A DNA stretch of 64,000 nt. Origin: Candidatus Bathyarchaeota archaeon (lineage in GTDB: Archaea > Thermoproteota > Bathyarchaeia > Bathyarchaeales > Bathycorpusculaceae). Position numbers and translations under genes: made by a program. Location: contig CAWHVC010000001.1 of assembly GCA_963832745.1 (NCBI GenBank), positions 672,001-736,000 on the forward strand, read 5' to 3'. The notes under the pieces were generated by a model that did no database searches, was not told the DNA's origin, and worked only from the letters and a program-made list of their open reading frames with translations. Position 1 is the first letter of the stretch; every line of letters begins with the position of its first letter. Below are positions 1 to 59,529 of this stretch, piece by piece.

Positions 1-165
1 TATTGCTTCTCCAGAGCGTTTCTACATGCCTGTGAAACGTTCAAACCCATCTCAAAAGACATGTTTACCAACTCAGGATTACAAATCTACTGCATTTATT
101 CGTATGGTCACATTGCAGAGCTCAGAGAAATTTTTAGTGACTCTAAAAAAAGGTCAGACTGTACA

Positions 166-1185: not shown

Positions 1186-1186
1186 T

Positions 1187-3226
1187 TTATTCCCCTACGA
1201 AATCCATTATCGAGGCATTTAAGCTCAAGTTTATTCGACTTTCTCGGCTCAGTCTATTTCGTGTAACCTCTTTTTCCCTCTCGGTTCCAAAAATTAACGT
1301 TTCAAGATCTTCCTTGCTGAATTGACGAATCCTTCCTCTTAATCTATAAGAAATACTGAAATAAGGTGCCAAAATATGGTTTAGGACATAAACATTGATC
1401 AAGGGGTCGGTTGTTGCTTTTCCTTTCATTGCCTTTTTCGGTTGGAGAACTGACCATTGAACTGCACAATTCAGAACTTTTCTAGCCTTTTCTGATAACG
1501 CCTCATTGTCAACGCAGAAATATGTAACTTCAGGTTCAGAAAGAACAGGGTCATTTTGCCATGAGTAAAATATTGCACCAAGCTGTTTAACAAGCGATTT
1601 TATCTCGTTTCCCCATTCTGGTATCCGTTCTATCATATCCATGTATCTTTCAGCACGAATAGTTGCACCATCCGTTTGAGCTTCAAACGACATCTTTCCA
1701 TCTTTTATTAATGAGGTTCGATCCGAGAATAGCGCAATATTAAAACTCTGATAGCATAGTTCAAGAAAATTACGAATGATTCCAGATGATAGCATGCAAT
1801 AAACGTTGAAACCGGCGTATTGCTTTTGGGTGGGTTTATTTAAACTGACTAATTGAAAAAGCAATGATAACTTGTTTTTGTCGTAAAGATTGGCATACTT
1901 TTTAAATTCCAAAGATTCCCTTTTCCCGCTAATATAAGAGGCGAACATTTTAGCGATAACTTCTGGCTCATAATTCCTACGCAGCAATAACAGGTTTAGC
2001 ATTTCCAACAGTGGTTTTTTGTCTATTAGACTATTGAATATGGCGTCTAAGGATTCGTCAAGACGATGTTTTTTATTTAAAACTTTTCCAATTTCAACGA
2101 CATGTTTTGTTTTAAGATATTGATCTAATGGATATTGATCAATTTCATTTTGAGTTAACTTTTTGTTAAATACAATTATTGTCGCTTCATCCTCTACAGG
2201 AAACTCGCCAAGAATACTTTCAATATCAGTAAACCCTTTTTCCTGCAATTCTGGAATATGTTCCAAGCGTCGCTTAGCAATCATCTTCAACAAATTTCTA
2301 TACTCTTCATTATGGGACATTAGCACATCTTCAAATCTTATCCGCCTATAATCGGCGTCTTCCATCAAAAATTCGCCCACGTTCAAGGTATCACATGTTT
2401 TAAAACCCTTTAATCTCGTGCCTATTCTAAAGGTAACAAAATTTTTGGTATGCTTGAATAATGTATTAATAATTTTCTGCTGTTGGTACTGCAAATTTTC
2501 ATACTCATCTAGTAATAATATTATTCTTTTTCCATGAAATTCGGGAAGATTTTCTTGCAAAATTTCAGGAATACCAAAAATTAGCTTCCCTGAACGGATG
2601 GGGTGCCCAGAGAAAGTTGTTTCCGTAGAAAGTGCAGCACAGTTAATAAAATCAAAGATTCTTTCAAGCTCTCGTTGGAAAAAGTCAATAGCAAAATCTA
2701 ATGAAGGCTCTTCTTGGATGATAATAGATTCATCCACTAACTTTAGAATTTCAGTGAGTATTTTTATTTCTTTACTTTTCTCGATATCGATGCACTGATT
2801 TTCCTTAAGATTCTGCCACAACATAATCATTTTTTGCCCGATAGTCAATTCAAAATAATGTTTGAATAATGTCTCCCAACCTTCGGGACTTGTATGTCTT
2901 GAATCAAAACTTGCCAGACTAGGCCCATCAAATCTATGGTAAATACCAACGTAAAGGGTTTGATTTAGAAATCCTTTGCCATCACTATTTTCACTGACAT
3001 ACTCTTTAATTTTAATCTCATTTGACATCCATTTTAGAAGCATTGTTTTGCCTGTACCTCGACCGCCCTCAAAGATTACGGGAGTATCTCCGGTGAGGTC
3101 TATACCCATCGCTTGTACACCAAATACAATTTCAGGTTGTATCCAGTACTTCAAAACATCGTCATCACCCATCAAACTCGCGTTGAATGCAGCGAAGGGA
3201 TTTCTTAGGTTAAGTTCTTCTTTCAT
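1187..3226 (-). CDS. ORC/CDC6-like STAND-class P-loop ATPase
   Basis: 679 aa; N-terminal NPF, Walker A GGRGTGKT, Walker B LLLDEYEN, C-terminal SSGIIRNFLELC and LAPYFSISYRLR motifs. Confidence 0.8.
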   Translation of the reverse strand: MKEELNLRNPFAAFNASLMGDDDVLKYWIQPEIVFGVQAMGIDLTGDTPVIFEGGRGTGKTMLLKWMSNEIKIKEYVSENSDGKGFLNQTLYVGIYHRFDGPSLASFDSRHTSPEGWETLFKHYFELTIGQKMIMLWQNLKENQCIDIEKSKEIKILTEILKLVDESIIIQEEPSLDFAIDFFQRELERIFDFINCAALSTETTFSGHPIRSGKLIFGIPEILQENLPEFHGKRIILLLDEYENLQYQQQKIINTLFKHTKNFVTFRIGTRLKGFKTCDTLNVGEFLMEDADYRRIRFEDVLMSHNEEYRNLLKMIAKRRLEHIPELQEKGFTDIESILGEFPVEDEATIIVFNKKLTQNEIDQYPLDQYLKTKHVVEIGKVLNKKHRLDESLDAIFNSLIDKKPLLEMLNLLLLRRNYEPEVIAKMFASYISGKRESLEFKKYANLYDKNKLSLLFQLVSLNKPTQKQYAGFNVYCMLSSGIIRNFLELCYQSFNIALFSDRTSLIKDGKMSFEAQTDGATIRAERYMDMIERIPEWGNEIKSLVKQLGAIFYSWQNDPVLSEPEVTYFCVDNEALSEKARKVLNCAVQWSVLQPKKAMKGKATTDPLINVYVLNHILAPYFSISYRLRGRIRQFSKEDLETLIFGTEREKEVTRNRLSRESRINLSLNASIMDFVGE

Positions 3227-3240
3227 GGTTTATTCATCTT

Positions 3241-4140
3241 TCAGAATTTGTGCTTTCTTTTGAAAAGGGGATACCACTTCTCACCAGAGGTTTGTCTTTC
3301 ACCCCAAATCACTGGTAGGGTATTATCAGGTATGTTGTGGTGAAAACCAACAAGCGCTTGTGAGTCTTTATAGCCCAACGCATCTTCACCCTTAAAGATA
3401 TTGTTTCCATAATAACCACAAATTGATTTTGCAGAATTGCGCTCAGTAGGGTCCTGGAATACCCATGATGTGGAATCAAATACACGGTAGCTATTGTCCA
3501 GTACTTGAGGGCAAATGACGTCAAGCCCCGTATGGTTTTTAACTTTTTCAATTGCTTTCTGTAGTGCTATGAGCGCAATAAAATGAAATTTCGTCTGAGG
3601 ACATCGATTTTTAATTGCTAGCACTTTTTTGTCCCAAAAGTCGCATGTAGTTTTACCCGTTCCCAAAAAATCGTCGATAAAAACGATATTTAGAGTGGCT
3701 AATTCGTTTGGTGAATACTCGTTTGTCAGAAACGCGTTTGGTTCTACGAATTGCATGTATGACAGTCTGTTTTCTTGTCTAAAATTATACGTTAGCATAG
3801 CGCCACTTTCGCTTAAACGACCTATGCATGAAAACCGACAACTACTCGCAAATTGAGTTATTGCGCGCTCTGTATTTAACGAGGCGTATTGAGAAGGATT
3901 ATCGATAATCCTTTGGCGCTTAAGGAGAGAAAAAGCCGCTCTGCAAAGGTAGTTTATTTCCTTTTCACCATAGTAAATGAAATTTCTGAGTAATTGTATG
4001 GCAGTCTGTTTTTCAATCGCTGACTCACAATGTTGACCTTTGAAATTTTCCATCCATGCGTCAAATATAGCATTGGTCAACCTCTTTTCCCATAGGTAAT
4101 TGTTTTTATCAACGATTTCCATAAGCAATTTTTCGGGCAT
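3241..4140 (-). CDS. Phosphoribosyltransferase-like protein (conflict-system PRTase)
   Basis: PRPP-binding loop IVFIDDFLGTGKT, SESG motif, C-terminal GY...FHHNIPDNTLPVIW...WYPLFKR; likely ATG at 4140, 1 nt after the methylase stop. Confidence 0.8.
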   Translation of the reverse strand: MPEKLLMEIVDKNNYLWEKRLTNAIFDAWMENFKGQHCESAIEKQTAIQLLRNFIYYGEKEINYLCRAAFSLLKRQRIIDNPSQYASLNTERAITQFASSCRFSCIGRLSESGAMLTYNFRQENRLSYMQFVEPNAFLTNEYSPNELATLNIVFIDDFLGTGKTTCDFWDKKVLAIKNRCPQTKFHFIALIALQKAIEKVKNHTGLDVICPQVLDNSYRVFDSTSWVFQDPTERNSAKSICGYYGNNIFKGEDALGYKDSQALVGFHHNIPDNTLPVIWGERQTSGEKWYPLFKRKHKF

Positions 4141-4141
4141 T

Positions 4142-5235
4142 TCAAGATTCCCCCAAAGCAGTCTGCAATTGCATTCCAATCGCTTTTGCCATAATCGGCG
4201 GGACAGCGTTCGCAATTTGTTGTTGTTGTGCTCCCAAGTTTCCGTAGAAAATGTAATCGTCTGGAAAAGATTGTAACCTTGCGGCTTCTCTGACGGACAA
4301 CCCTCTGTGCTCTTCTGGATGAATTAGCATGTTCTTACGGAAATTACTTATTACTATCGAAGGCTCGTCCCATTTTAGTCTGTAGTAAATCCATCCATGA
4401 CAATTTTCAAGATTCTTGTAATTACTCATCATGGATTTTGGGAGACTTCGCCAATTGCCTCCTTGCGGTATCAACTTATACCTTGTTATGGCTAGTTCTC
4501 TATTTTTTGAAACTTTATTATTTGTGACAGAAGATACAGAATTTTTTTGTCTCATTAATTTTTGGTAATCTGAAAGATTAGTAGTCTTTTTATAAGCGAG
4601 AACTTCAGTCGGGTTCCCATTCTCCAATGACGGCAAATCGTCTATTGCCTGCCTAACTGTCACTAAGGGTTTCCCTAATGAATCAATTAGAGAAAAATAG
4701 CCACCCTTTGCGCCTACGAATATCACGCGCTTTCTTCTTTGAGGAACGCCAAAATTCTCACTATTAATCAACCAGTAGTTTGTCTGATAACCAAGCTTTT
4801 TACTAATTTCTAAAATATCTTGTAATACCGATCCATTTGCTAAGGATTTATCCCCTCAACATTCTCAAAAATGAACATTTTTGGAGATAAGTCAGCGACG
4901 ATTCGAAAATAATGTTGATACAAGTGATTTAGAGGATTCTGGAGGTTTCTACTTTTTCTGTTGGATGTAGAAAAACCCCTACAAGGAGGACCGCCAGCAA
5001 CTAAAGAAATTTCGGAATGTCGTAAACCGCCAATCTTGAGAATTTCTGTTGAATCCACTTTTGTTATGTCGGATTCTATTACGTGCATTTTTTCATGATT
5101 CATTCCAAGCGTTGTAGCCGCTTCATGATCAATCTCAACGCCAACTCTTAGGTCAAAACCTGCTTCTGACAAGCCATGTGATAACCCCCCAGCACCAGCA
5201 AATAAATCTACAGCTATAGGTTGCGAGTTAGCCAT
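4142..5235 (-). CDS. dcm: C5 DNA cytosine methyltransferase, split by one frameshift near 4848
   Basis: Motif I DLFAGAGG, IV GGPPC, VI ENV in 4840-5235; VIII PQRRKR, IX SVREAARLQSFPD, X QIANAVPP in 4142-4771; adding one A to an AAA run gives ENVEGIKSLANG... Confidence 0.9.
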
Positions 5236-5324
5236 GGCATGATCCCGGATGAAACATCAATATACACGACAATCCTTTTATCGTTTTTTATGAGCATAAT
5301 AATCAAGATCATTAGGGTATTCTA

Positions 5325-5729
5325 ATGACCGACAAATTTAGTAAAGAGAAAAGAAGTCAAATAATGTCAAAAATAAGATCGAAAAATACAGACATTGAAA
5401 TTACCTTAAGAAATGGATTGGAAAAAAACTGCATAAAATTCGAATACCAGCCAAAGCTTTTCGGTAAACCGGATTTTCTTATACCCCCTAAAATAATTGT
5501 TTTTTGCGATAGCTCATTTTGGCATGGAAGAAACTGGCAGGAACTAGACAAAAAATTACCAAAAGGTTATTGGCATGAGCATATAAAACGTAACAAAGAA
5601 AGGGATGTATTAGTCAACAAGCAGCTTACTGATCAGAACTTCGTCGTTCTTAGGTTTTGGGATTTTCAGATTAAAAAGGAAACGGAGTCTTGCATTAACA
5701 AAATTAAAGACACCCTTAGCGCCCTCTAA
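5325..5729 (+). CDS. vsr: Very short patch repair endonuclease
   Basis: MTDKFSKEKRSQIMSKIRSKNT N-terminus, GKPDF, FCDSSFWHG, NKERD, LRFW motifs; divergent from dcm. Confidence 0.93.
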   Translation: MTDKFSKEKRSQIMSKIRSKNTDIEITLRNGLEKNCIKFEYQPKLFGKPDFLIPPKIIVFCDSSFWHGRNWQELDKKLPKGYWHEHIKRNKERDVLVNKQLTDQNFVVLRFWDFQIKKETESCINKIKDTLSAL

Positions 5730-5966
5730 AACTTGATGCAAGAATGTAAATGACCATTAAAGGGGGTTTAAAATCACCAGTTTATTGCGCTACTCATTTT
5801 AGTACATGTGGGTACGTTGAAATTCGATAGGCAAAAAAGCTGTATAGGGAAAATCTTCCAACCATAAAAAACATTTTTTTGAAGTCTGTTAGGAATCAGA
5901 TAGCGGGATTTTTCTAACCAGTTTAAATATTGGAAGCAAGCAAGTAAATTAAAAGAGGGGCTGGGT

Positions 5967-7148
5967 ATGGGATTTGATGAATACCAATTTTTACGATATT
6001 TTATTCCAGGCAGTCTTGCTGTTATTTATATTGCCTTTTTCTTGGCCCCTTTTATAGGTGATGGGGTAATCAATAATTTTAAAGCAAGTCCAGAGGGCTT
6101 ATTAGGAATAGTGGGGGCTGCTTTTGGAGCAAGTTTAGCTATTGGATATGTTATTTACACGTTCTATGATACGTGCAGTTATAATAAAGCTGCTATGGAT
6201 TCGACGAAGCGACGAATACTACACTATCTTGAAAAACAAAAACCAGATTGGAAAAAACTTTCAGAATTTGAAAAGAAGGCGACATTGGATATGCTTTATG
6301 ATGCTTTTGATGATAGTTCAGTAAGTAATAGGGTTGCTTCAAAAGCACGCGGTATGTGGTCTCATTTCAATGCAAGAAAAGTTTGTGCAATATATGTTCC
6401 ATCTTTTTCAATTGTGTTTTCTGTTATCATAATTTTGTTTGCACATCTTATTAAACCAAATATTTTTGACTTTTCTAACTTGTATCGTTTCCTTTTACTA
6501 ATTCCTATCTGTTTGATAGTAGGTGCTGTCTCATATGTTTTGTATTATGGTGCGAATCGTCCCTATAGCGAGGCTACCACATTAGAGTATTTGTATATGC
6601 GAAGAGTTCTATCGAAATATGATAATGAATTCAACACAATGGTTGTTAATCTTAAGAAAGAAACCGATAGTAAGAATAATAACCAAGTAGAGTCTAATGA
6701 CAAAAATATGAGCTTAACTAAAAATGAAGAAATCGCAACGTATAGAATCGATTGGGCTCATCAAAGACAATTAGTAATTGTTGCTTCTTTGCTGGGTCTT
6801 GGCTTAGCGGTAGTTGAGCTTTTGTCTAATGGGTATAATGTTTTTGATAATATTGTCCTTAGAATGCTTTACTATACATTGTCAGCGCTCTTTTCAATTG
6901 GGGTTTATTCATTTTTTAAATTTGAAAAAGAAATTTTAAATTGGCAGTTTAAGCTTAGCGATGAGTGGAAAATAAAATTCGAAGATACTACATTCAAATT
7001 TTTCTTTTCAAAGGAAGGCTCTGATGTTAATTTGAAAAAAATAACAGTATTTTTGCTCTGTATAATTTGTTTATTTATTCTTATTGCATTACCCTACGCT
7101 GGGTATTTTTGTAAAAATCATTTGAATAATTTTTTATGGTTCACCTAA
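5967..7148 (+). CDS. Polytopic membrane protein of unknown function
   Basis: 393 aa ORF with about 7 hydrophobic segments in two blocks. Confidence 0.7.
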   Translation: MGFDEYQFLRYFIPGSLAVIYIAFFLAPFIGDGVINNFKASPEGLLGIVGAAFGASLAIGYVIYTFYDTCSYNKAAMDSTKRRILHYLEKQKPDWKKLSEFEKKATLDMLYDAFDDSSVSNRVASKARGMWSHFNARKVCAIYVPSFSIVFSVIIILFAHLIKPNIFDFSNLYRFLLLIPICLIVGAVSYVLYYGANRPYSEATTLEYLYMRRVLSKYDNEFNTMVVNLKKETDSKNNNQVESNDKNMSLTKNEEIATYRIDWAHQRQLVIVASLLGLGLAVVELLSNGYNVFDNIVLRMLYYTLSALFSIGVYSFFKFEKEILNWQFKLSDEWKIKFEDTTFKFFFSKEGSDVNLKKITVFLLCIICLFILIALPYAGYFCKNHLNNFLWFT

Positions 7149-7149
7149 A

Positions 7150-7404
7150 CTAATTTTTCTCTGCTTGCGTTTCTCTTTCTTCTTTATCCCATTTTGCTTG
7201 GTCTTTTTCTGCTTGCTCAAAATCATCCTCAGTCAAATGCCTATGTGCATGAACCGAACAATTATAGGAATTAAGTTCTATACCATTGCATCTGAAAACT
7301 TCAATCAACTGCTTGTAAGTATAATGATGAACATGAAGTAGTAGGGTAAACGACTTGATTAAGCAGTCTGGGCTGGAACATATTTTGCAATTCTTCTGTT
7401 TCCT
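7150..7404 (-). pseudogene. Small CxxC...HxxxH zinc-binding/HTH-like protein with lost start codon
   Basis: Open frame RKQKNCKICSSPDCLIKS...SVHAHRHLTEDD...; GGAGGTGA RBS at ~7411-7418 is followed by TAG where a start is expected. Confidence 0.45.
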
Positions 7405-7476
7405 CTAGAATCACCTCCATTTTAGAAAAACACTTGAGGGAGCGGCGCTGGTAGAGAACCGTCTGTTTCCAACCGG

Positions 7477-8830
7477 TCATTTGAGAGGTTGGGGGACAGA
7501 CTGGGGCTCTACCAAAGCTGCTCCTAATCCTAACTGTTCTATTGGAATGATTATGTCTGAAGATGTTTCAGTGATGGGTTGGTTTTCTTTGTTTTTAGAC
7601 TCAGCTTTTACTTCATCGTATGTTTTGCGCAGGGTTATAATTTGGGGTTTACTTCCTGCGATTGTTATCATTTCGCAGTCTCTTGCGGTCGTCAGGATAT
7701 CGGTCAACTGTTTTGATGTCAAATGCATTCTTGTGATTAGCACTTGACGTTCTATTTGTTTCTCTGAACATCCATCTAATATTCTGCTGAGCTTTGCTAA
7801 GTTTATGCTAAGCCAGTCTGAAGTTTGCATCTTAGCATACTTAGCACTTAGCATACTAAGCAGATTATTCATGAATTCCCTTGATTTGATTGCAGATTCT
7901 TTTGATATTTCGATTGTATTCTTATCTCTAAGTTTGCTAAGTTGCAAAGTATCCGCTTCATAAAGTGCAGCTATTTTGACTAAATAGGTATCAGCTCGAC
8001 CATTGATTGCTCCAATAAATTCCTTCTCTTCTTCTGCACTATCTCTAAACGCTTTATGATGTTTGATTATTTCTTGATTGATTATTTCTTCAGCGTCTTT
8101 GCTTAGGTTAAATCTGAATGTGTTACTTCCACTTCTTGGATGAAAAATGTCCCAGATACCTTCAGATTGTTCTTTGCCAATTCACCTTTTGCTTTAACTT
8201 CGGTTCTTTGTTGACCATTCAACAGTTGTATTTTTTCACATTCGTCCCGAAGATTATTATAAATCTTGCAAGGAACCCAGAAGAAACTGGTCTTGCTTAA
8301 CATACTTAGCAAAGTTAACTTTCGTTGTTGCCCACAGCATGTTAAAGCAAGGTTCTGTTACCGTGAATTTTCCGCTTCTAAGGTCTTTAGTTCTGCCTTG
8401 ACCATTGTATAGTGCCATAACGGTGTCATCGATTCCACTGAGGTAGCTTCTTGGATTATCAATTTGTTTCAGTACTGGCGCGCATTCATCCCAAATATTG
8501 AGACCATTACTATTTTGTGACAACTCCGCAAAGAAGGCTTCTTTAGTAAATTCGTCTGCATACACGTTAGCTTCTTCCGGAAGCATTGCTCTTGCTTCAT
8601 CGAGTAATGTGCTTTTTCGGCTGTATGTACTATAACTCTACAAGCATAGTCCACAAATTTGGTAACAGATTAGCGAAGTTGGTGTCAATAAATACTCTAC
8701 CAACAGCTAAGCTTACAAGATTGAGAGCAACTGCTTCTTGAAAGAGCGCATAGACATCACTTTTAGTAGTGATATAGTCTTTGAACGCGTCAATAAAACT
8801 GTGACTTGGATTTTCAGTTGTTGTCGTCAA
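7477..8830 (-). pseudogene. DUF3987/YfjI-like (MCM-related) ATPase/helicase of integrated element, multiply frameshifted
   Basis: Fragments join into PNLWTMLV..STYSRKST (Walker A-like), NIWDEC (Walker B-like), GFLARF (Arg finger), GRADTYLVKIAAL, and a C-terminal wHTH-like region. Confidence 0.65.
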
Positions 8831-9011
8831 AGTTCTTCACTTCTCTCTTCACAGTTAATTTAACGCCGTTAGGCGCTCTTTGAACAAAGATCATTTTACA
8901 ATTCTCGTTAAGGAACTGCTCGATTTTGTGCCATGATTTTTTTGCTTCAACATTTAGCACAATTGCAACATTGAAGATTTGATTAGTTTCATTCTTCATT
9001 TGTTTATCCAC
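8814..9011 (-). CDS. Small hypothetical protein
   Basis: 65 aa ORF overlapping the DUF3987-like start; AGGTGG RBS-like sequence at its 5' end. Confidence 0.5.
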   Translation of the reverse strand: MDKQMKNETNQIFNVAIVLNVEAKKSWHKIEQFLNENCKMIFVQRAPNGVKLTVKREVKNFDDNN

Positions 9012-9292
9012 CTGTTCTCTTAAGAAAGAGGGTTTGAGTGCTCGGTTAGGAGCGCTCTACCAAAACAGTGTTTAATTCAAACAGTTTCATTAGACCCCAT
9101 TCTTATTCTCAGACCTTCCATTCTTCGTAACTTTTTTCATATCCCGATAATATTACTACCCCACCGCTTTTTTTCAAGTAGTATAGGCACTACATTTTTT
9201 GATTTCTGTTCTTATCAGATATACACTTACTTTATCGTTTTTTATTTCCGAATTTTTTTGACTTTTTTTCATTTTTTCCTTCCGAGGAGGAA

Positions 9293-9913
9293 TCATTTGA
9301 TGACTTCTTCCTCAAGGATATTAGTGACATTTGATGGAGAAGTGTCACTTTTTGAAAACGGCATACTACCCAACCTACTCATTGAGGCTTTTTTTAGTGC
9401 TTTTTTGCTAATAAGAAGAGTAAGCAATTCTGGTTCTTCAATTTCATTGAGTGCTTTTGAAATTATCTTGTATTCTTTTAAATTGAAAGCGGGAGCGCCA
9501 ATGAGTTTATAGAGATTTGAGCGTGAATAGCCATTCAAACCACTTGCCTTAAGGAAGTTAGCGAGTTTTGTTCTGTTAAATCCAAAATATCTATCAAGCT
9601 CTAGAAGCAAATTTTGCCTAAGATTTATTTTGTCAAACCTATTCAGTATTTCAATTTCATGACTGGACAGCTTTCTCTCTTCAAAAGAGCATAATCTATG
9701 GCTTTCAGTTTTTACGATTTTATATTTCTCAAATTTTATCGCTCTATGTTTTAGGTTTATTCTTTTGTCTAACATTTTTTCAAATCTTGTTTTGGTATAT
9801 CCGTACCAAAACGAGCCGGGAGCGGTTTCTGCGCAGTCAAACCTAATGTAGTCTGACTGCCTAAAACATAGAGAAACCTCGAACGTACAAGCTAATGTCA
9901 TACGCCCCGGCAA
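9293..9913 (-). CDS. Hypothetical basic protein, possible HTH
   Basis: 206 aa ORF co-oriented with the element genes; NRTKLANFLKASGLNGYSRSNLYKL resembles an HTH. Confidence 0.45.
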   Translation of the reverse strand: MPGRMTLACTFEVSLCFRQSDYIRFDCAETAPGSFWYGYTKTRFEKMLDKRINLKHRAIKFEKYKIVKTESHRLCSFEERKLSSHEIEILNRFDKINLRQNLLLELDRYFGFNRTKLANFLKASGLNGYSRSNLYKLIGAPAFNLKEYKIISKALNEIEEPELLTLLISKKALKKASMSRLGSMPFSKSDTSPSNVTNILEEEVIK

Positions 9914-10207
9914 ACGTTGTTACCTGACACTACTATATCAAAGGCAATTTTGTTATTGCACGCAGTATTTCGTTCCATGTCTCGCTTGTGAGAACGGAGT
10001 AAGTTCTTGCCTCAGCGTTTGCTATAAAAGTTTTGCTTTCCCGAAAATATGGACTTTTCATGAGTAAATTAAATCAAAAAAAGATTGAGCAGTTTCTTCG
10101 GTAATTTATTTCTGCTTTGCGTCAACATGGTGATACTTTGTAGAAAAAGATAATCTAAAAGATGAAAACGATAAATTTAAACGTGAAAATGTCGAAATAA
10201 AACAAGC

Positions 10208-11077
10208 ATGTGCCCAAAGGAAATCTACACAAAAGATTTCATACTTACTAAAATAAGAGAGTTTTCGATTGAGAACGGGCGTCCGCCGCGTTATAATGAG
10301 TCCGGTTTTGAAAACATAACTTATGCTGCCAAAACTAAGTTCGGTTCTTGGACTTACGCTTTACAGATTGCTGGATTACAAACTTACAGGTCGTGGCATA
10401 AGAAAGACACGCGTGGTGGACGGCTTTGTACGCTACTCAATAATAATCCAATGACTCTAAAAGAAATTCGTGCTGAATTTAAAAAAGATGGTCTTTTTAA
10501 GCTCTCTTCAAATTCTGAAACATCGCTAAGCTTGCTTCAGGTAATTAAAAATACAAAACAAATAACATCGATTGGTCCCCGCCGAAGTACGGTCTATTTT
10601 TTGATTGGTCAAGAAGAAGCAGCTAAGAAGCATCTAAATCAACCAACATCTTCAGACAATAAACAAGACGTTATATTCTCGGCATTGGCTACTAAACCAA
10701 TGACTAAACCCGAAATAGTTAACTTATTTCCTTCAAGTTACCACAGTACCGAAAGATTGCTGAAAGAACTATTTTATGCACGACTTGTTGGAAGAATTCA
10801 TTTTATCGCTGGGTCGCACAAATATCGTGTTGATGACTTGTTCGGTTCGCTTGCTTGCAAGACCTACTATTTTAGATTTGATTACCCTGAGCCTTTAGCA
10901 ACCCTCATAGTGGAGAATATTCCATGGGAAAAAGCAGAAAAGAATCAATATGCAGTGATTTATTACTTGAAAAAAATTCTGCCAAGCGACTGCTTTGAAA
11001 TATTTGAACGGAAAAGGGCTCGGAGGAAAAGTATCGCAGCTACTTCTGGGTCTATTGATGATTTCCTTCCATCGTAA
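10208..11077 (+). CDS. Homing-endonuclease-associated repeat plus winged-helix-like protein
   Basis: N-terminal ILTKIREFSIENGRPP...KTKFGSWTYALQIAGL is the typical HNH-associated repeat; two PMTxxEI wHTH-like segments follow. Confidence 0.6.
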   Translation: MCPKEIYTKDFILTKIREFSIENGRPPRYNESGFENITYAAKTKFGSWTYALQIAGLQTYRSWHKKDTRGGRLCTLLNNNPMTLKEIRAEFKKDGLFKLSSNSETSLSLLQVIKNTKQITSIGPRRSTVYFLIGQEEAAKKHLNQPTSSDNKQDVIFSALATKPMTKPEIVNLFPSSYHSTERLLKELFYARLVGRIHFIAGSHKYRVDDLFGSLACKTYYFRFDYPEPLATLIVENIPWEKAEKNQYAVIYYLKKILPSDCFEIFERKRARRKSIAATSGSIDDFLPS

Positions 11078-12532
11078 TATCTTGAAGCATCATACTTTGA
11101 TATTGATTGACAAACTCTGTTAATGAATCACCTGAAATAGTTCTGGCTATTTCAAATATTATTACGCGTCTGAAATGATGCGGAAGAGACCCTTCTCTTC
11201 TTGAGAACGCATATTGAGGGTGGTCAGTGTTGATAGAGAATGCAGCTTTTCCGCTATCGAGAACGCATTCATAACCTTCTTTACCTAAAGGTTCAAGCTC
11301 AAATTTGTATCTACTATTGCCATTCTTAATTAACCTTGGAGGCTGTTCTTTTTTCTTTTCGTTGTGTTTTATCAGGATTTTCTTCACGTTCTTTCTTTTC
11401 TTTCTGCGTTCTTCAATTTCTTTAATTGCACTCATTACTTCTTTTGCATCCGTTTCGTTTCGTGGCACGAACCAAGAAAATCCTCCCGTAATTCAGCTCC
11501 TTTCAACATATTATCTATCTGATGTCTAATAACATCATCCAAAATTCTTTTCTCCGAAACTTAACTCCTCATGGGATTGGGAAGTTTGGATTTCTTTTGT
11601 AATTTCACGGATTTTGCGTAGAATCGCTTCCTTAAATTCAATAAACTTGGGTGCTTCCTCAGAAAAACCATTCCGGGTAGCAAGAACTATGTCATCTAAT
11701 CCATCTGCGTAAAGAACACAGTATTAGCCTTGCAAGAAAGCTACCGGGACTTGTTAAGACCCTTGCTAAATCAAATATATTAGGGTCATCTGCATTAACA
11801 GTTCGCCCATGAACCTTCACATAAACACCAGCAAACTCTCCTAAAGGGCTTATCAGAATGAATTATTTTTCCTTTGATTTTTTCCAGTCAAATGCAAGTC
11901 TAAATCAATCGGAAGATTCTCTTCCACTTACTAAATCTTCTGGCCTGAGCTCTTCGTTGTTCACTGTTACTTTAAACTCGGGACTCAGCGGCATGTTTCT
12001 TGCAATTCGTCTTATTGCTTTTTATTCATGAAGGTCTTTTTTAATCCAAAAAGCATTATAGTTGTTCCATTAGGTAAGTCAGTCGATGATTCAGCTACAT
12101 TTATTCTTTTTATCACCAATAGACTTATGTGAAAATATTTTTTCAAAATCCAACATTAGAATTCTCTGAATGCCCTTTTTTCTTGTGATAATTTTGCATC
12201 TGTTACACATTACATGCATCGACAGTTTTCCGATTCCAAATTTTCCGATGGTGTATTCTTCTGAGGTTGCTTGTTTTTTTGTCTTCTCGTTTCTCGCTAT
12301 AGCCCAGCCATAGATAGTTTTCTAAGTCCTTTCTATCCATGCCGACTCCATCATCTCTAATCGTCAAACGTGCTTGAGAAAAATCAATGTCCACTTTAGT
12401 GGCATCCGCATCATAAGAATTTGATACCAATTCGTCGAGGACATAATATGCATTTTCATACAGACTTGAACTCAATGTCTGGATTAATTCCGCTCTTGCT
12501 TTGAAGGACGTACAATATTCTCTTATCGACAT
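11052..12532 (-). pseudogene. GHKL (MORC/HATPase_c_3-type) ATPase, multiply frameshifted
   Basis: ELVSNSYDA, DDGVGM and, after a frameshift, YTIGKFGIGKLS Bergerat motifs; later GVYVKVHGR and ADGLDD...TRNGF fragments; C-terminus INTDHPQY in 11052-11468. Confidence 0.75.
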
Positions 12533-12539
12533 TTAGGAA

Positions 12540-13680
12540 TCTCTGACAGCTCGAAATCTAAAAACCTATGACTTCTTTACCATATGATGTCAGAGAGTAT
12601 ATGTAACATCTACGCCATTTCTTGATCCATCGATAACTCCGAGTTCACTCTAATCTCCTTATTGCTCCTGCTCTAATTGTGCTTATCATCGCTTCGGACT
12701 CATCCTCTTGATAATGGGGAAAATAGCTTTGTTTAACTGAGCAGGTGAACAACTTTTTTCATCGATTGCCCGTAAATTCCTATGTTAAGCGACCCATTCT
12801 CTATCAAGGTTATGAAAAATGTGGTCGATATAAAACGAAGCTTTCTCTCTTTGCTTAATCTTTTTGCTATAGTTTTCTTCATCCAAAACAGTGTTTGATA
12901 AAGCGGCGAATTTTAGGCCTTTTTCAGTTATTCCGATTCTTGTCGTTTATTTTCTTCATCTTCAGAGAATATTCAAGAACTTCAAAGCACTGGGTGCCCC
13001 TTCACTTCTTCTTCCAGCTCTTGTGTAATAGCCGACAAAATGGTTGATGAACCGTTTTTCTGTCTTCTGAATGCTTTTTCCTGTTGGTCAACGCAGAAGC
13101 AAGTACTTCTTCGCCATATTTCCTCCTATTTTTTTTATCATCTTCTCTTCAATGACAAGCCAATTTCTCTGGCTGAATTGACTGCTTCTGTTTGCAGCAA
13201 GCTTAACTCAATCGATTCGTTTTCTTGAAGAATGTTCGCAAGAACTCTAAGTGTTATTTTTATGGAAAATAACCTGTTATATTGCCCCCATAAAGATTCA
13301 TTTGGTATTTTGTTAGATTCGGGGGGTGACATTTGTTCTAATTGATTCAGGTGCAAATGGTTTAGCCAAAATTGAAGTTGACTGTTGAATTTTTGTAGAT
13401 TTTGTTTTTACGAAGTTAATGTCTTTCGCTTCCAAACAGTATTTGAAAAATGTTTCTTTAGAACTTTTCTTCAAGGAAAAACTGATTTTGAAAAGCTATA
13501 TTCGCAAATTGTGAGACTGATTCGAACTCTGCATTGGTTGATTAAATTATTGACTTTTTTTGCCAATTCTGGCGATATCTCGATGATTAATTTCAAACAA
13601 TTGCGATTCGCCATTAATTTATGTGAATTAATATATAAAATCTTTTCGATTATTCCATTATTTTGTGTATATTATCATTA
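12540..13680 (-). pseudogene. Fragmented hypothetical protein directly upstream of the GHKL ATPase
   Basis: Coding-like fragments in shifting frames: LWGQYNRLFSIKITLRVL, RFINHFVGYY..EGAP, GITEKGLKFAAL, FYIDHI; boundaries approximate. Confidence 0.5.
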
Positions 13681-13849
13681 AATAAATTGAATTAATAGGG
13701 TGTTAGAAAGAAATGTTTAAAAAAAACTTTAATCGCAAATAGTGGATTGAGGTTTAATATGCCAGAAATAAAGAAAACTACCGAAATTTCTGATGTTCAC
13801 GAAAGTTCGAATCTCTCCCGGGCTATATCTACCCAGGCGCGAATTTGTA

Positions 13850-14880
13850 CTATTTTCAAATTGACTCTCACGTAGCTCCTTAATCATCTGTTGTTTAAGA
13901 GCGGTTGTAATTTGCATAATCTGCGACTGCTCATACTGCTTCTGGTCGAAAATAGATGTTAGATTGTAGCTGTGCTTCTCTTGAGAGAATTTGTTCAGGA
14001 TTTAGTCCAATGAACGAGTAAATTCTTTTAGGATTTCAATCTTGTTTAGGTGTGTCTTTGGTTTTATGCTTAAGCCTGCGGAAATATAGACTCCACGAAG
14101 GATTTGATGCCTTTCATGCGTATATCATGATAAGTGCTGATTGTGTGTCCCATCATGTATTCGATGTAGTCTGTTTGAATGTCCAAAGATGCTAGCTGAG
14201 TTTGGAAGTATTTTCGTAGGCTGTGTGCGCGTAGGTCATAGCGTCGGCATCTGGGTTTTTCGGTTACTAGTCCAGCTTTTACGTAGAGGTTGTGGACGAT
14301 GGAATGAATTCTGCCGGTGGTTATGGGTCTGACGGTGTTGCTTTGTCCATCTCGAATTAGTGGTGAGTCATCGTTGATGATTTCGGGATGTTTTCTGCCT
14401 GTTGGGCTGCCGTGTCTACGCATGTCAAAGTAAGTTTTTAGGTATTCACTGCTTCTTGTCCAAGAAATGTATTATAGTCGTGGTATTTGCCTTGAGACAG
14501 GCTGGTACAAACCAACACCTGAACTAATTCTAAACGCTATAGCAAGATTGGGAGAGGTTTTGGTTTGTGCAGCAAGAATCAAGCAAAAGCTTGTGGCTGA
14601 AGATGGCAAATCAGAAAACTTTGGTTTGATGAGGAAGCGGGAATTGTTGAGGAGGCCAAGGGTTTTCTTAAGAATTATCCGCAACTCTTGCCCATATTAA
14701 TTGCTGATGGAGATAAAGTGGACGTTTGGAGCCAAGAAGCATTAAGACTGCTTGGAGATAACTATGTTCCCCTGGACAGATTTAGGCCATTTCTCGTTGT
14801 TGTACGCCGGTAACATTAACCGAGAAGTAGTCGTCCTTTAGGGCTACCAGACGACTACTACCATTATTCCAGATGCATTA
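13850..14880 (-). pseudogene. Tyrosine recombinase/integrase, decayed
   Basis: 14070-14423 encodes RAHSLRKYF...YIEYMMGHTISTYHD (H-x-x-R, H, Y catalytic residues); C-terminal KPKT...NPEQILSREA fragment in other frames; N-terminal half disrupted. Confidence 0.8.
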
Positions 14881-58298: not shown

Positions 58299-58396
58299 TT
58301 AACATCAAATCTCCATAAGACATTACGGCTTAACGGTAAATAGAGGTTGTTAAGGGCAAAGCAAGATTAAAAATTCAGTGCAGAAAAACAAAAAAA

Positions 58397-58999
58397 TTAG
58401 GCTTTAACTGGAGCCTTTGTAACAACACGCGGGGGCTTTGTAACTACAATAGACGGTTTCGTGTCAGGTTTAACTGTATCCTCAATCTTAACCGGATACA
58501 CCGAGTAACCCACACTTAACCTATAAGGTGCCAAAAGCATGCCCCAAATCTTGCTTAACTCATCAACCGAAAGCGCATCAGGGACCACTTTTAGGTCCTC
58601 CCCAGCTTCGCTTATGCTGCCTTGAAGGTTTGAACCACGTATAATCGGCGTTTCATGGAACAGCTGCATAATTTTGCCCAAAACGATTTGGTCATTCTCG
58701 CCATTTTGGGTTATAGGCGTGATTAGGTAACGGAGGTTTAGGTAGAGTGGAGGCTTTGACGGGTTCTGGGTGGGTGTCGGCTGGTTGCGCATGCTGGCTA
58801 GTTCGGTGACGTTGTAAAGGTAAACTGAGATTTGTGGCGGTTTTAATTCGGCGGCGTCTTTAGGTGAAAGGAAATTGATTTGCTCAGGGTTTCTGATGAT
58901 GACGCTTGTTTGTTTGTCATCTTTGAAAGCGTTCCAGATTCGGTTGGCAAGAGTTTTGCTTGCACCGTTAATATTGTTAAAGCTCACCTGGTCTGTCAC
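58397..58999 (-). CDS. DUF4255 (Pvc16/Afp16-like tail terminator/cap)
   Basis: ISVYLYNV...RN, PPLYLNLRYLITP, DQIVLGKIMQLFH, LSKIW, PYRLSVGY. Confidence 0.85.
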   Translation of the reverse strand: MTDQVSFNNINGASKTLANRIWNAFKDDKQTSVIIRNPEQINFLSPKDAAELKPPQISVYLYNVTELASMRNQPTPTQNPSKPPLYLNLRYLITPITQNGENDQIVLGKIMQLFHETPIIRGSNLQGSISEAGEDLKVVPDALSVDELSKIWGMLLAPYRLSVGYSVYPVKIEDTVKPDTKPSIVVTKPPRVVTKAPVKA

Positions 59000-59005
59000 C
59001 TAAGC

Positions 59006-59440
59006 TTATTTTACGCGTTGCATTGTTTCGAAAACGATTTCTAAGGTTTCAATGGCTACTTCGTTGGCTTTAGCGTTTAAGTCGGGTCCTTTGTATTTGC
59101 TTGGCCAAGCGTTTGTGAAGTCCCAGCGGGCTGCTTCAACGCCTTCCTCGTCAATAAGGATTACGGAAACGTTTTTGCGCATGGTGTTGATTTTTCCTTG
59201 TTCAATCATTTTCCGCCAATTATAAAGCTCCAATGAGTTAGTGATACCCCATTTCAGAATTAACGGGTTGTAGGCTGTGGCGCCGGGCAGTTTTTGAGTG
59301 GTAACTGATGTGCCTTCTCTGTGTTCGATTACTTCGCTTGCGGATTCAGGCACGATTACTTCACAAAAGTTTGCTTGTGCAACACCGGTTATTTCGATTC
59401 TGAAACGATGATTTCGAAAAGGGTCTTTTCTGGTTGACAT
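59006..59440 (-). CDS. T4 gp19-like tail tube protein (eCIS Afp1/5-like)
   Basis: DPFRNHRFRIEI, EHREG, KLPG, LILKWG, LYNW, RKNVSVIL, ARWDFTNAWPSKYKGPDLNA..NEVAIETLEI. Confidence 0.9.
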   Translation of the reverse strand: MSTRKDPFRNHRFRIEITGVAQANFCEVIVPESASEVIEHREGTSVTTQKLPGATAYNPLILKWGITNSLELYNWRKMIEQGKINTMRKNVSVILIDEEGVEAARWDFTNAWPSKYKGPDLNAKANEVAIETLEIVFETMQRVK

Positions 59441-59529
59441 GTTATCGTTAACTCCAAACATGTACTCAGATGAAGGAATTATTATGTTTTGCCAAAAACT
59501 GCAAAGGCAACGCCGTGGATTTAACGCGT

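What the first reader, a model, noticed from the sequence alone, without database searches (positions are those of the whole stretch)
58397..59461. Isolated contractile-injection-system tube + cap gene pair in an archaeal core region
Seen: intact gp19-like tube and DUF4255 genes 6 nt apart, flanked by a Cache-domain gene and PadR regulators, with host-like composition. No sheath, spike, baseplate, tape-measure or eCIS ATPase gene is present anywhere in the 64 kb. Known: these two families are the inner tube (Afp1/5) and terminator cap (Afp16/Pvc16) of eCIS and normally occur in large clusters. Inference: either a split eCIS locus, an alternative tube/cap cassette for a locus elsewhere, or a domesticated sheath-less capped nanotube with a new function.
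Basis: partly seen in the sequence, partly recalled or inferred. Interest (0 to 1): 0.75.

Follow-up and report, generated by a model that had tools for sequence, protein, structure and literature searches.

The report
Baseplate-less tail tube, cap and sheath

Summary
On the minus strand, a gp19-type tube gene (59006-59461, Pfam E 9e-41) is followed by a short Pvc16_N/DUF4255 cap gene (58397-58999, E 4e-37), in host-like sequence between a Cache sensor and PadR genes.

The genome is a Bathyarchaeia MAG, 99% complete, and has no second CIS cluster. It does have one minimal sheath gene (359 aa) about 610 kb away on the same contig. Neither Pfam models nor 14 lineage-specific HMMs found gp25, Baseplate_J, hub, spike, PAAR or tube initiator.

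In a sample of 101 genomes of the genus, 12 carry the tube-cap pair. Eleven of those also have a sheath at another locus, none has Baseplate_J, and one has gp25. Pair tubes are sister to the tubes of complete eCIS clusters in congeners (62-64% identity). The lone sheaths form one clade that has lost the insertion domain.

All three genes are under purifying selection (dN/dS 0.04-0.27). One congener shows the same kind of cluster in mid-decay.

My reading: this is a reduced, baseplate-less tube/cap/sheath set derived from an eCIS and kept by selection. "Sheath-less nanotube" is wrong, and "split eCIS" is only half right. The function is inferred, not shown.

The parts
59006..59461 (-). Tube gene (gp19/Afp1-like inner tube). 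The longest ORF is 151 aa. The likely true start is ATG 59440 (144 aa).
   Evidence: ORF. (PF06841, E 9.4e-41). (phrog_4542 tail tube). (PDB: tubes of solved CIS 9r9h, AlgoCIS 7adz, Anabaena 7b5h, Afp1 6rao, Pvc1 6j0b). (start-codon argument).
58397..58999 (-). Cap / tube-sheath terminator gene (short Pvc16_N-only form). The longest ORF is 200 aa. The likely true start is GTG 58987 (196 aa). The C-terminal Lys/Pro/Val-rich tail (residues 175-200) is predicted disordered.
   Evidence: (PF14065, E 4.4e-37). (profile hits to PlPVC1 cap 9qgn, Pvc16 6j0f, Afp16 6rap, S. coelicolor cap 9gts, AlgoCIS cap 7adz_0A). (model pLDDT 79.4; six CIS caps at probability 1.00). (196-aa database copy).
59479..59492 (-). 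BRE/TATA-like promoter element (GCAAAACATAATAA) upstream of the tube gene.
   Evidence: sequence; an AAAAYATAATAG-like element recurs upstream of the tube gene in the 13 pair loci printed. This is read by eye and is not a statistical motif test.
58996..59001 (-). Shine-Dalgarno-like AGGTGA between the tube stop and the cap start, 8 nt before GTG 58987. It suggests translation of the cap from a bicistronic tube-cap mRNA.
   Evidence: sequence read directly. The function is an inference.
58384..58396 (-). T-run (TTTTTTTGTTTTT) directly after the cap stop codon, an archaeal-type terminator signal.
   Evidence: sequence read directly. The function is an inference from general knowledge of archaeal oligo-T termination.

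Best explanation
The tube-cap pair is one of two loci of a reduced, three-protein derivative of an archaeal contractile injection system. The two loci are a bicistronic tube->cap unit here and a monocistronic minimal sheath gene (359 aa, G000:C1 about 121.55-122.63 kb) roughly 610 kb away.

All three genes descend from the kind of complete eCIS cluster still found in a few congeners, in the order cap-X-sheath-tube ... tube initiator, hub, spike, PAAR, gp25, Baseplate_J, ATPase. In this lineage the baseplate, spike, initiator and length-control genes were lost, the sheath lost its surface insertion domain, and the tube gene came to lie directly upstream of the cap. The trio has since been inherited through at least 11 species-level lineages of one Bathyarchaeia genus under purifying selection.

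Shown: homology, genome-wide lack of detectable baseplate genes, co-occurrence, common descent, and selection.

Inferred: the three proteins still co-assemble. Tube hexamers would stack, the cap would close one end, and the sheath would polymerise through its retained N- and C-terminal arms. Without a baseplate or spike this polymer cannot be triggered to inject. It would therefore serve a non-injecting role, such as an intracellular rod or container, or a structure that interferes with foreign tails. The specific cellular role is unknown.
For: Identity of the parts.

Genome-wide content of G000 (99.0% complete, both loci on contig C1):
- Tube, cap and sheath each have exactly 1 hit.
- gp25, Baseplate_J, Phage_GPD, PAAR and CIS_tube have 0 hits at E<=0.1.
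- phmmer with all ORFs of the congeneric clusters (G224, G190, G174, G199, G006, G017) and the decaying G182 cluster hit only tube, cap, sheath, generic AAA+ genes and unrelated flank genes.
- Of 14 lineage HMMs, 4 hit (tube 2e-55, sheath 3.5e-133, cap 2e-56, AAA). The other 10, including the J, gp25, spike and hub families, gave no hit at E<=1.
- No HK97 capsid or TerL was found.

The sheath stands alone beside a Nuo-type operon.

Reference cluster: the ten G224 ORFs scanned carry Baseplate_J, gp25, PAAR, Phage_base_V, a weak Phage_GPD/YQBQ hub match and CIS_tube+LysM. Its cap, sheath and both tubes are assigned by blastp/phmmer to the window's genes and by the genus Pfam searches. Its ATPase is assigned only by a phmmer hit to G000's generic AAA+ genes.

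Descent:
- The G000 tube is 62.6-63.7% identical to the cluster tube next to the sheath, and the cap is 39-44% identical.
- The sheath is 49-52% identical in two blocks. An insertion after residue 90 is missing, while the N-terminal PGVY..GVSTST and C-terminal APVKPAEF segments are kept.
- Pair tubes form one side of a branch (support 73/81), sister to the cluster tubes.
- Ten of 11 sheaths from pair genomes, plus G203, form a clade with support 97/94.

Distribution in the genus sample of 101 genomes: cap 39, sheath 39, tube 45, Baseplate_J 7, gp25 10. The tube->cap pair occurs in 12. Of these, 11 have a sheath, always on another contig or 480-700 kb away; the exception, G217, is 56% complete. 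None has Baseplate_J and one (G207) has gp25. Thirty genomes have a sheath with neither baseplate marker. All 6 loci found in the species-representative collection also have the tube next to the cap.

Selection: NG86 dN/dS is 0.04-0.20 for the tube, 0.10-0.22 for the cap and 0.10-0.27 for the sheath, against 0.02-0.09 for flanking core genes.

Contrast case: the G182 cluster is visibly decaying, with Baseplate_J in at least 7 pieces, gp25 split and a tube gene with stop codons. Neutral loss therefore leaves recognisable wreckage, and G000 has none.

Expression signals: a conserved BRE/TATA-like element, an SD-like site and a poly-T run.
Against: - No expression or assembly data exist. No RNA run was listed.
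- In every studied contractile system a baseplate nucleates the extended sheath. By general knowledge of T4, T6SS and Afp, sheath alone forms contracted polysheath, so co-assembly of this trio has no experimental precedent.
- MAG bins can miss plasmids, so a baseplate on an unbinned replicon is not excluded.
- One of 12 pair genomes lacks a sheath hit. One (G175) has a sheath of a different lineage. One (G219) has its sheath split into two ORFs.
- Tube/cap and sheath trees disagree within the closest four genomes.
- Co-occurrence among kin is not independent evidence. The Fisher p of 9e-5 overstates it.
- No gene neighbour is shared across all pair or sheath loci that could hint at a role.
Confidence: 0.55

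Rival explanations
1. The genes are a defence or interference decoy. Host-made cap, tube and sheath subunits would co-assemble with, and poison or prematurely terminate, the tails of infecting myovirus-like viruses, or the CIS of invading elements or neighbours.
For: The trio evolves 3-5 times faster at the protein level than flanking core genes (67-86% against 85-99% identity). dS at these loci is often larger than at the flanks for the same genome pairs, and the tube/cap and sheath trees disagree among the closest genomes, as expected for loci exchanged between lineages. Complete eCIS clusters are patchy in the genus (Baseplate_J in 7 of 101), so foreign CIS do circulate. The distribution of the parts is itself patchy.
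Against: dN/dS is 0.04-0.27 with no sign of positive selection in the pairwise estimates; site tests were not run. In IMG/VR the best of the 80 kept loci (430 relatives confirmed) is 49% identical to the sheath over its best segment, and no cap relative was found. No tailed provirus was found in G000. NG86 dS above 1 is unreliable. I found no precedent in the papers searched.
Confidence: 0.15
2. The functions are separate. The tube-cap pair works without the sheath, for example as a capped hexamer stack that holds or chaperones small proteins as Hcp does, and the lone sheath has its own unrelated role. In this reading the co-occurrence reflects shared ancestry only.
For: The two loci are never adjacent in pair genomes. 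Their trees differ in detail. Minimal sheaths also occur in 28 of 89 genomes without the pair, many alongside a different partner set of tube plus CIS_tube. Stand-alone ~300-aa Pvc16_N genes occur in 16 genomes that have neither a tube nor a sheath hit. This shows that single CIS-derived parts can persist alone.
Against: 11 of 12 pair genomes keep a sheath, against 28 of 89 other genomes. The same subclades recur in all three trees. The sheath keeps the arms needed for polymerisation.
Confidence: 0.13
3. The genes are parts for a complete CIS whose baseplate module lies on a replicon missing from the bins (plasmid or virus), or is built from proteins unrelated to known baseplates.
For: MAGs often lack plasmids. 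In Halogeometricum borinquense, whose Cis2 is the closest solved relative of the lone sheath (E 3e-116), the CIS cluster lies on a 210-kb plasmid (PMC11566945, passages read).
Against: In the congeners examined with complete clusters, the cluster carries its own tube, cap and sheath and lies on large contigs of 385-945 kb. No cluster lacking those three genes was seen. Pair genomes include a single-contig 3.04-Mb assembly and a 100%-complete one, both without baseplate markers. A baseplate as diverged as the tube (about 63% identity) would have been found.
Confidence: 0.1
4. The genes are non-functional remnants of a decayed eCIS that merely have not yet been lost.
For: Decay of such clusters does happen in the genus (G182). 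Pseudogenised tubes exist in G177, G214 and G174. The G219 sheath is split.
Against: Open reading frames are intact in 12 pair genomes, and a further genome outside the sample (locus L033) carries the pair too, at up to 35-55% protein divergence. dN/dS is 0.04-0.27. Promoter-like elements are conserved. The rearranged gene order and the trimmed sheath are shared across the clade.
Confidence: 0.05

Closest known systems
Extracellular contractile injection systems of the Afp/PVC/AlgoCIS type (Afp1/Pvc1 tube, Afp2/Pvc2 sheath, Afp16/Pvc16 cap)
   Same: The tube, cap and sheath are clear homologues. The lone 359-aa sheath aligns end to end with Pvc2 (355 aa, E 2e-61) and Afp2 (354 aa, E 3.7e-50).
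   Different: No baseplate (gp25, Baseplate_J), hub, spike, PAAR, tube initiator, tape measure or dedicated ATPase was found. The genes lie at two loci 610 kb apart rather than in one operon of 15-28 genes. The set fails the operational definition used by eCIS surveys, which requires at least 4 linked core genes within 12 kb (PMC8213781, passages read).
Haloarchaeal T6SS-like CIS, clade IIa (Halogeometricum borinquense, PDB 9EZM; PMC11566945)
   Same: Its Cis2 is the closest solved relative of the lone sheath (E 3e-116, two aligned stretches). The host is also an archaeon.
   Different: That system has 14 structural genes in one cluster plus a membrane anchor and mediates contact-dependent killing (passages read). 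Here only three structural genes remain, and the sheath lacks the roughly 215-aa insertion. A homologue of the anchor Hbor_38620 was not searched for.
Complete eCIS clusters of congeneric Bathyarchaeia (G224:C6, G190:C7)
   Same: These are the nearest relatives of all three genes: tube 62.6-63.7% identity, cap 39-44%, sheath 49-52%. They have the same short cap type (203 aa).
   Different: They are full clusters with a tube initiator (CIS_tube+LysM), hub, Phage_base_V spike, PAAR, gp25, a 1069-aa Baseplate_J and an ATPase assigned only by similarity to generic AAA+ genes. Their gene order is cap-X-sheath-tube rather than tube-cap. Their sheaths are 696-817 aa with an extra domain and a C-terminal QWQGGS..TE tail that is absent from the lone sheaths.
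One-domain Bathyarchaeota sheath noted by Evseev et al. 2022 (PMC9230969)
   Same: That paper models a 321-aa one-domain sheath from a Bathyarchaeota MAG and calls it the shortest sheath modelled (passages read). It is probably the same kind of minimal sheath.
   Different: The passages read say nothing about gene context, missing baseplates, a partner tube-cap pair or selection.

Membership tests
Pfam PF06841 Phage_T4_gp19 (CIS/myovirus inner tube) | Whole-protein score above the curated cut-off over the full-length profile | tested here: met
   139.2 bits against a cut-off of 28.2, profile 2-133/134. The PDB tube hits are 9r9h, 7adz, 7b5h, Afp1 and Pvc1.
Pfam PF14065 Pvc16_N / DUF4255 (CIS cap, tail terminator) | Score above the cut-off and a terminator fold | tested here: met
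   128 bits against a cut-off of 27, profile 5-178/180. The model matches six solved CIS caps at probability 1.00, TM 0.44-0.63, followed by T4 gp15 and the T5 and Mu terminators.
eCIS (Afp/PVC-type system) | Sheath gene present | tested here: met
   One sheath (PF04984 + PF17482, 359 aa) lies at G000:C1:121.5-122.6 kb. It is not linked to the pair.
eCIS (Afp/PVC-type system) | Baseplate wedge: gp25-like and Baseplate_J-like proteins (Afp9, Afp11) | tested here: not met
   0 hits at E<=0.1 with PF04965 and PF04865. 0 hits with congeneric proteins. 0 hits with lineage HMMs at E<=1. The genome is 99% complete.
eCIS (Afp/PVC-type system) | Spike complex: VgrG/hub and PAAR (Afp8, Afp10) | tested here: not met
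   PF05954 and PF05488 give 0 hits. The cluster spike, hub and PAAR proteins give 0 hits. PF04717 itself was not searched as a family in the own genome.
eCIS (Afp/PVC-type system) | Tube initiator (Afp7-like CIS_tube+LysM) and tape measure | tested here: not met
   PF19266 gives 0 hits. No hit from any cluster ORF other than tube, cap, sheath and AAA, apart from unrelated flank genes. The tape measure was tested only through the cluster ORFs, not with a dedicated model.
eCIS (Afp/PVC-type system) | Dedicated AAA+ ATPase (Afp15-like) | tested here: inconclusive
   Cluster ATPases hit two AAA+ genes (C3:99837-102074 at E about 1e-36 to 6.5e-47, and C5:405341-406552). Neither is linked to the trio. 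I did not establish whether they are ordinary Cdc48-type housekeeping genes.
eCIS (Afp/PVC-type system) | Operational definition: at least 4 linked core genes of at least 3 families within 12 kb (Geller et al. 2021) | tested here: not met
   Only two core genes are linked here, and the third is 610 kb away. The definition was read.
Tailed provirus (myovirus tail module) | HK97 capsid and large terminase in the genome | tested here: not met
   PF05065 and PF03354 give 0 hits at E<=0.1. Portal was not searched.
Haloarchaeal T6SS-like CIS (clade IIa) | A cis1-16 cluster plus a conserved membrane anchor (Hbor_38620-like) | not tested
   The cluster is absent, as shown above.

The most novel reading that the evidence does not exclude
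Tube, cap and a trimmed sheath form a baseplate-independent polymer that this archaeal lineage has domesticated from an injection system. It would be a capped, sheathed rod that does something other than inject, such as an intracellular scaffold or container, or a decoy that blocks foreign tails. Sister configurations in the same genus (tube + initiator-like CIS_tube + sheath, and stand-alone caps) would make this a family of exapted tail parts. About 30 of 101 sampled species carry a sheath with no baseplate marker.
Probability: 0.35. Interest if true: 0.85.

Novelty: new variant of a known kind. Interest (0 to 1): 0.66.

Why it matters
Every contractile tail-like machine studied so far (phage tails, tailocins, eCIS, T6SS) depends on a baseplate to nucleate the extended sheath and to trigger it. 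CIS surveys define systems by clustered core genes, so dispersed reduced sets are invisible to them by design (definition read).

Here a whole clade of uncultured archaea keeps only the tube, its cap and a minimal sheath at two unlinked loci, under purifying selection. Congeners still show both the complete ancestor-like cluster and a cluster caught in decay.

If the three proteins act together, this is a natural minimal system for asking what sheath, tube and cap can do without a baseplate. It would also be an example of exaptation of virus-derived machinery in archaea. If they do not act together, it still shows which CIS parts are individually worth keeping.

The set is small: three genes of 144, 196 and 359 aa. 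It can be tested directly by co-expression and electron microscopy.

Tried and rejected
- Complex prediction of sheath (alignment A2) with cap (alignment A1) returned no verdict (score 0.00, controls not run). It is not evidence either way.
- Sequencing-run search listed no RNA holder. Four DNA runs were listed, three of them holding 0.10-0.13 of the sampled words and one next to none. Read laying was therefore not used, and nothing can be said about expression or habitat.
- Earlier findings of this scan gave nothing by place, sequence or words.
- A search for conserved neighbours that might hint at function found only lineage-local synteny. Near the pair: PadR, Cache, ECF-S, radical SAM, LPG synthase, heliorhodopsin, peptidase M16 and ABC genes. 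Near the sheath: fasciclin, NUDIX, zinc-ribbon and Nuo genes. No family is shared by all loci. I rejected PadR regulation of the pair as a general feature, because PadR is adjacent in only the four closest genomes.
- A shared specific regulatory motif between tube and sheath promoters was not established. Both carry generic BRE/TATA-like elements, which I did not count as evidence of co-regulation.
- Viral origin is not supported. Of 430 confirmed IMG/VR sheath relatives, the best 80 were kept, and the best of those is 49% identical over its best segment. No cap relative was found.
- Literature searches: 'contractile injection' + 'Bathyarchaeia' gave 0 papers. 'contractile injection' + 'archaea' + 'DUF4255' gave 4 papers, of which 3 were listed. 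'Bathyarchaeota' + 'tail sheath' gave 1 paper. 'contractile injection' / 'lack baseplate' / 'sheath' gave nothing describing baseplate-less sets among the 8 papers listed. Passages of PMC12210884 showed no mention of partial or orphan loci.
- One search was a formatting error (regions and files sent together) and was re-sent.
Full report
**1. What is at the coordinates**

One search lists two intact ORFs on the minus strand, 59006..59461 (151 aa) and 58397..58999 (200 aa). One search assigns the first to PF06841 Phage_T4_gp19 (E 9.4e-41, full-length profile) and the second to PF14065 Pvc16_N (E 4.4e-37, full-length profile). PHROGs calls the first a tail tube protein and has no family for the second.

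Sequence searches of solved structures agree. The tube matches the tubes of several solved CIS, among them AlgoCIS, the Anabaena system, Afp1 and Pvc1. A profile of the cap family matches the PlPVC1 cap, Pvc16, Afp16, the S. coelicolor cap and the 197-aa AlgoCIS cap.

An AlphaFold2 model of the cap (pLDDT 79.4) is ordered through residue 174, with residues 175-200 predicted disordered. It matches the six solved CIS caps at Foldseek probability 1.00, followed by phage tail terminators. A short, N-domain-only cap is therefore normal for part of the CIS world and is not a truncation.

The flanks are a Cache/HK-type sensor, two PadR genes, a B12/radical-SAM enzyme, an ECF S-component and an LPG-synthase-like membrane protein. 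GC content is the same as in the surroundings.

Reading the DNA and comparing orthologues gives these features:
- a BRE/TATA-like element at 59479-59492;
- a probable tube start at ATG 59440 (144 aa), preceded by GGAG;
- an AGGTGA 8 nt before GTG 58987, the probable cap start (196 aa, the length of the database copy);
- a T-run directly after the cap stop.

The pair therefore looks like a self-contained bicistronic unit. These signals are read from sequence, and their function is inferred.

**2. The rest of the genome**

The window is G000:C1:672001-736000 of a 3.02-Mb, 5-contig genome that is 99.0% complete. Titles of related loci name Candidatus Bathyarchaeia MAGs.

Family searches over all six frames give exactly one tube, one cap and one sheath. 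The sheath is at C1:121812-122291, about 610 kb from the pair on the same contig. It is a 359-aa ORF with both sheath domains. It stands alone beside a Nuo-type complex I operon, with fasciclin, DinB, zinc-ribbon and unannotated small genes around it.

GPW_gp25, Baseplate_J, Phage_GPD, PAAR and CIS_tube each give no hit at E<=0.1.

Pfam models could miss diverged archaeal proteins, so I used lineage-specific probes. Every ORF of the eCIS clusters of congeners G224, G190, G174, G199, G006 and G017, and of the decaying cluster of G182, was run by phmmer against all stop-to-stop frames of at least 50 aa in G000. Only the tube, cap and sheath, two generic AAA+ genes and unrelated flank genes were hit.

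I then built HMMs for the 14 gene families shared by at least three of those sources. Four found their target (tube 2e-55, sheath 3.5e-133, cap 2e-56, AAA). The other ten, including the Baseplate_J, gp25, spike and hub families, found nothing at E<=1. No HK97 capsid or large terminase is present.

The genome therefore holds a tube, a cap and a sheath, and no detectable machinery to nucleate, trigger or tip a contractile tail.

**3. Where the three genes come from**

G224:C6 carries a complete eCIS. The ten ORFs scanned carry these families:
- a CarboxypepD_reg protein;
- CIS_tube+LysM (Afp7-like initiator);
- a weak GPD/YQBQ hub match;
- Phage_base_V spike;
- PAAR;
- gp25;
- a 1069-aa Baseplate_J protein;
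- an Ig/MG2-domain protein.

One of the ten (316 aa) had no family. The cap, sheath and both tubes of this cluster were assigned by blastp/phmmer and by the genus Pfam searches. The ATPase was assigned only by a phmmer hit to G000's generic AAA+ genes. G190:C7 is colinear.

The G000 proteins compare with these clusters as follows:
- The tube is 62.6-63.7% identical to the cluster tube that sits next to the sheath.
- The cap is 39-44% identical to the 203-aa cluster caps.
- The sheath is 49-52% identical in two blocks to the 696-817-aa cluster sheaths.

An alignment shows that the lone sheaths lack one large insertion after residue 90. They keep the conserved N-terminal (PGVY..GVSTST..GET) and C-terminal (APVKPAEF) segments, and they have lost a C-terminal QWQGGS..TE tail.

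The closest solved sheath is Cis2 of the Halogeometricum borinquense T6SS-like CIS (9EZM, E 3e-116; paper identified, passages read).

In trees, the pair-linked tubes fall on one side of a branch (support 73/81), sister to the cluster tubes. Ten of the 11 sheaths from pair genomes, plus G203, form a supported clade (97/94) next to the cluster sheaths. The G175 sheath belongs to another lineage. The cap tree is poorly resolved, but a single origin is not excluded.

The gene order tube->cap differs from both cluster types seen: cap-X-sheath-tube in G224/G190/G182, and sheath-tube-X-X-cap in G174. The pair is therefore a rearranged arrangement, not a simple deletion product.

**4. How widespread it is**

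Family searches over a sample of 101 genomes of the genus (G000 included; the group is larger) gave the following counts:

| Family | Genomes with a hit (of 101) |
|---|---|
| Pvc16_N (cap) | 39 |
| Sheath | 39 |
| gp19 tube | 45 |
| Baseplate_J | 7 |
| gp25 | 10 |

From the coordinates, a tube gene lies immediately upstream of a ~195-208-aa cap frame in 12 genomes. Of these 12:
- 11 have a sheath hit, always on another contig or 480-700 kb away on the same one; the exception, G217, is 56% complete;
- none has Baseplate_J;
- one (G207) has gp25.

Sheath occurs in 28 of the 89 other genomes. The Fisher p of 9e-5 overstates the association because kin are not independent.

Thirty of the 101 genomes have a sheath but neither baseplate marker, and 25 of those also have a tube.

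In the species-representative collection, a cap profile found 6 loci, and all 6 have the tube directly upstream. The flanks are conserved only among the closest genomes.

At order level, Pvc16_N was found in 8 of 151 genomes. Seven of these, counting G000, are in the window's own family.

In the protein databases the short cap has 98 relatives at E<=1e-3 among 158 candidates. The minimal sheath has well over a hundred 90%-identity clusters of 357-360 aa at 55-79% identity.

**5. Are the genes maintained?**

Pairwise NG86 dN/dS values are:

| Gene set | dN/dS |
|---|---|
| Tube | 0.04-0.20 |
| Cap | 0.10-0.22 |
| Sheath | 0.10-0.27 |
| Flanking NuoCD, NuoH, radical-SAM and PadR genes, same genomes | 0.02-0.09 |

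Several distant pairs were saturated (dS undefined) and are not counted.

The three proteins are 67-86% identical among the four closest genomes, where the flanking core proteins compared there are 85-99% identical. They are constrained, but they evolve faster than the core.

G182 shows what decay looks like. It has a colinear cluster with Baseplate_J in at least seven ORF fragments, a split gp25 and a tube gene with stop codons, while the cap, its neighbour and a 550-aa sheath remain open. G207 keeps an intact spike-PAAR-gp25 triplet in addition to the pair and the sheath.

These look like intermediate stages between the full cluster and the trio. The order of events is inferred, not shown.

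**6. What it most likely is and does**

Shown: an eCIS-derived tube, cap and minimal sheath at two loci; no detectable baseplate module; conservation in a clade of species under purifying selection.

Inferred: the three proteins still work together. The grounds are co-occurrence, matching subclades in the three trees, and retention of the elements that each protein needs to polymerise.

I commit to a baseplate-independent, capped tube-and-sheath polymer with a non-injecting role, at about 0.55.

The main weaknesses are these:
- In all studied systems the extended sheath is nucleated on a baseplate (general knowledge of T4, T6SS and Afp).
- There are no expression data.
- MAGs can miss plasmids.
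- Tube/cap and sheath trees disagree among the four closest genomes.

The rivals, with confidences:
- a decoy that interferes with foreign tails (0.15), suggested by faster evolution and possibly deeper dS at these loci (noisy);
- separate functions for the pair and the sheath (0.13);
- parts for a baseplate on an unbinned replicon (0.10);
- neutral remnants (0.05).

**7. Comparison with what is known, and novelty**

The parts are ordinary members of the tube, cap and sheath families. The system fails the eCIS membership test on baseplate, spike, initiator and linkage.

eCIS surveys require clustered core genes (PMC8213781, passages read; PMC12210884, passages read). A one-domain Bathyarchaeota sheath was noted without context (PMC9230969, passages read). 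My searches found no description of dispersed, baseplate-less sets. Supplementary tables were closed and might list partial loci.

I rate this a new variant of a known kind.

Noticed in passing
L022-L027 (e.g. L023:8995-10259; G014:C1 about 2.599 Mb, with its sheath at C1 about 2.093 Mb): A second dispersed module occurs in the same genus. It is a 165-185-aa gp19 tube directly followed by a 225-255-aa PF19266 CIS_tube protein (initiator-like, no LysM found). In most such genomes a minimal sheath lies at a distant locus, and no cap, Baseplate_J or gp25 hit was found.
   Followed up: partly
L154:8205-9125, L155:8011-8925, L156:7801-8688, L157:8111-9031: Stand-alone Pvc16_N proteins of about 295-306 aa with no CIS gene nearby were inspected at four loci. 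In the genus sample, 16 genomes have a cap hit but neither a tube nor a sheath hit. Their role is unknown.
   Followed up: partly
L065 + L049 (G182:C9, about 36-65 kb): A complete eCIS cluster caught in decay, colinear with the G224 and G190 clusters. Baseplate_J is in at least 7 ORF pieces, gp25 is split, the hub is in 3 pieces and a tube gene has stop codons. The cap (193 aa), a 173-aa gene and a 550-aa sheath are still open.
   Followed up: yes
L066:9642-10957 (G207:C13): An intact three-gene remnant of spike (Phage_base_V-like, 206 aa), PAAR-like (96 aa) and gp25 (123 aa). It is 55-70% identical to the G224 proteins and has no Baseplate_J. This genome also has the tube-cap pair and a lone sheath.
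   Followed up: partly
L055:9508-10588 (G219:C11): The lone sheath is split into two ORFs of 87 and 291 aa. This could be a frameshift, an assembly error or a pseudogene.
   Followed up: no
window 58397-59461 and G000:C1 about 121.5-122.6 kb, compared with G008, G195 and G200: dS at the tube, cap and sheath (often 1.4-2.8) exceeds dS at flanking core genes (0.4-1.2) for the same genome pairs. Tube and cap group G000 with G195, whereas the sheath groups G000 with G200. This may reflect locus-specific exchange between species, but NG86 is unreliable at these distances.
   Followed up: partly
L019:9055-10257 (G002:C3): A 196-aa AAA fragment lies next to a 132-aa tube that clusters with the tubes of the complete clusters. 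It is another small eCIS remnant in a different context.
   Followed up: no
L021:9801-11398 (G012:C13): A sheath (382 aa) and tube (150 aa) form an adjacent pair set among four ~860-930-aa PQQ_2/Ig-domain surface proteins. No other CIS gene lies nearby.
   Followed up: no
L058:3580-4290 (G198:C12): A heliorhodopsin gene (PF18761, E 7.7e-79) lies directly upstream of the tube-cap pair in one congener.
   Followed up: no
window 1-14000: GC is 0.35-0.37 here, against 0.39-0.48 over most of the rest of the window. This was not examined.
   Followed up: no
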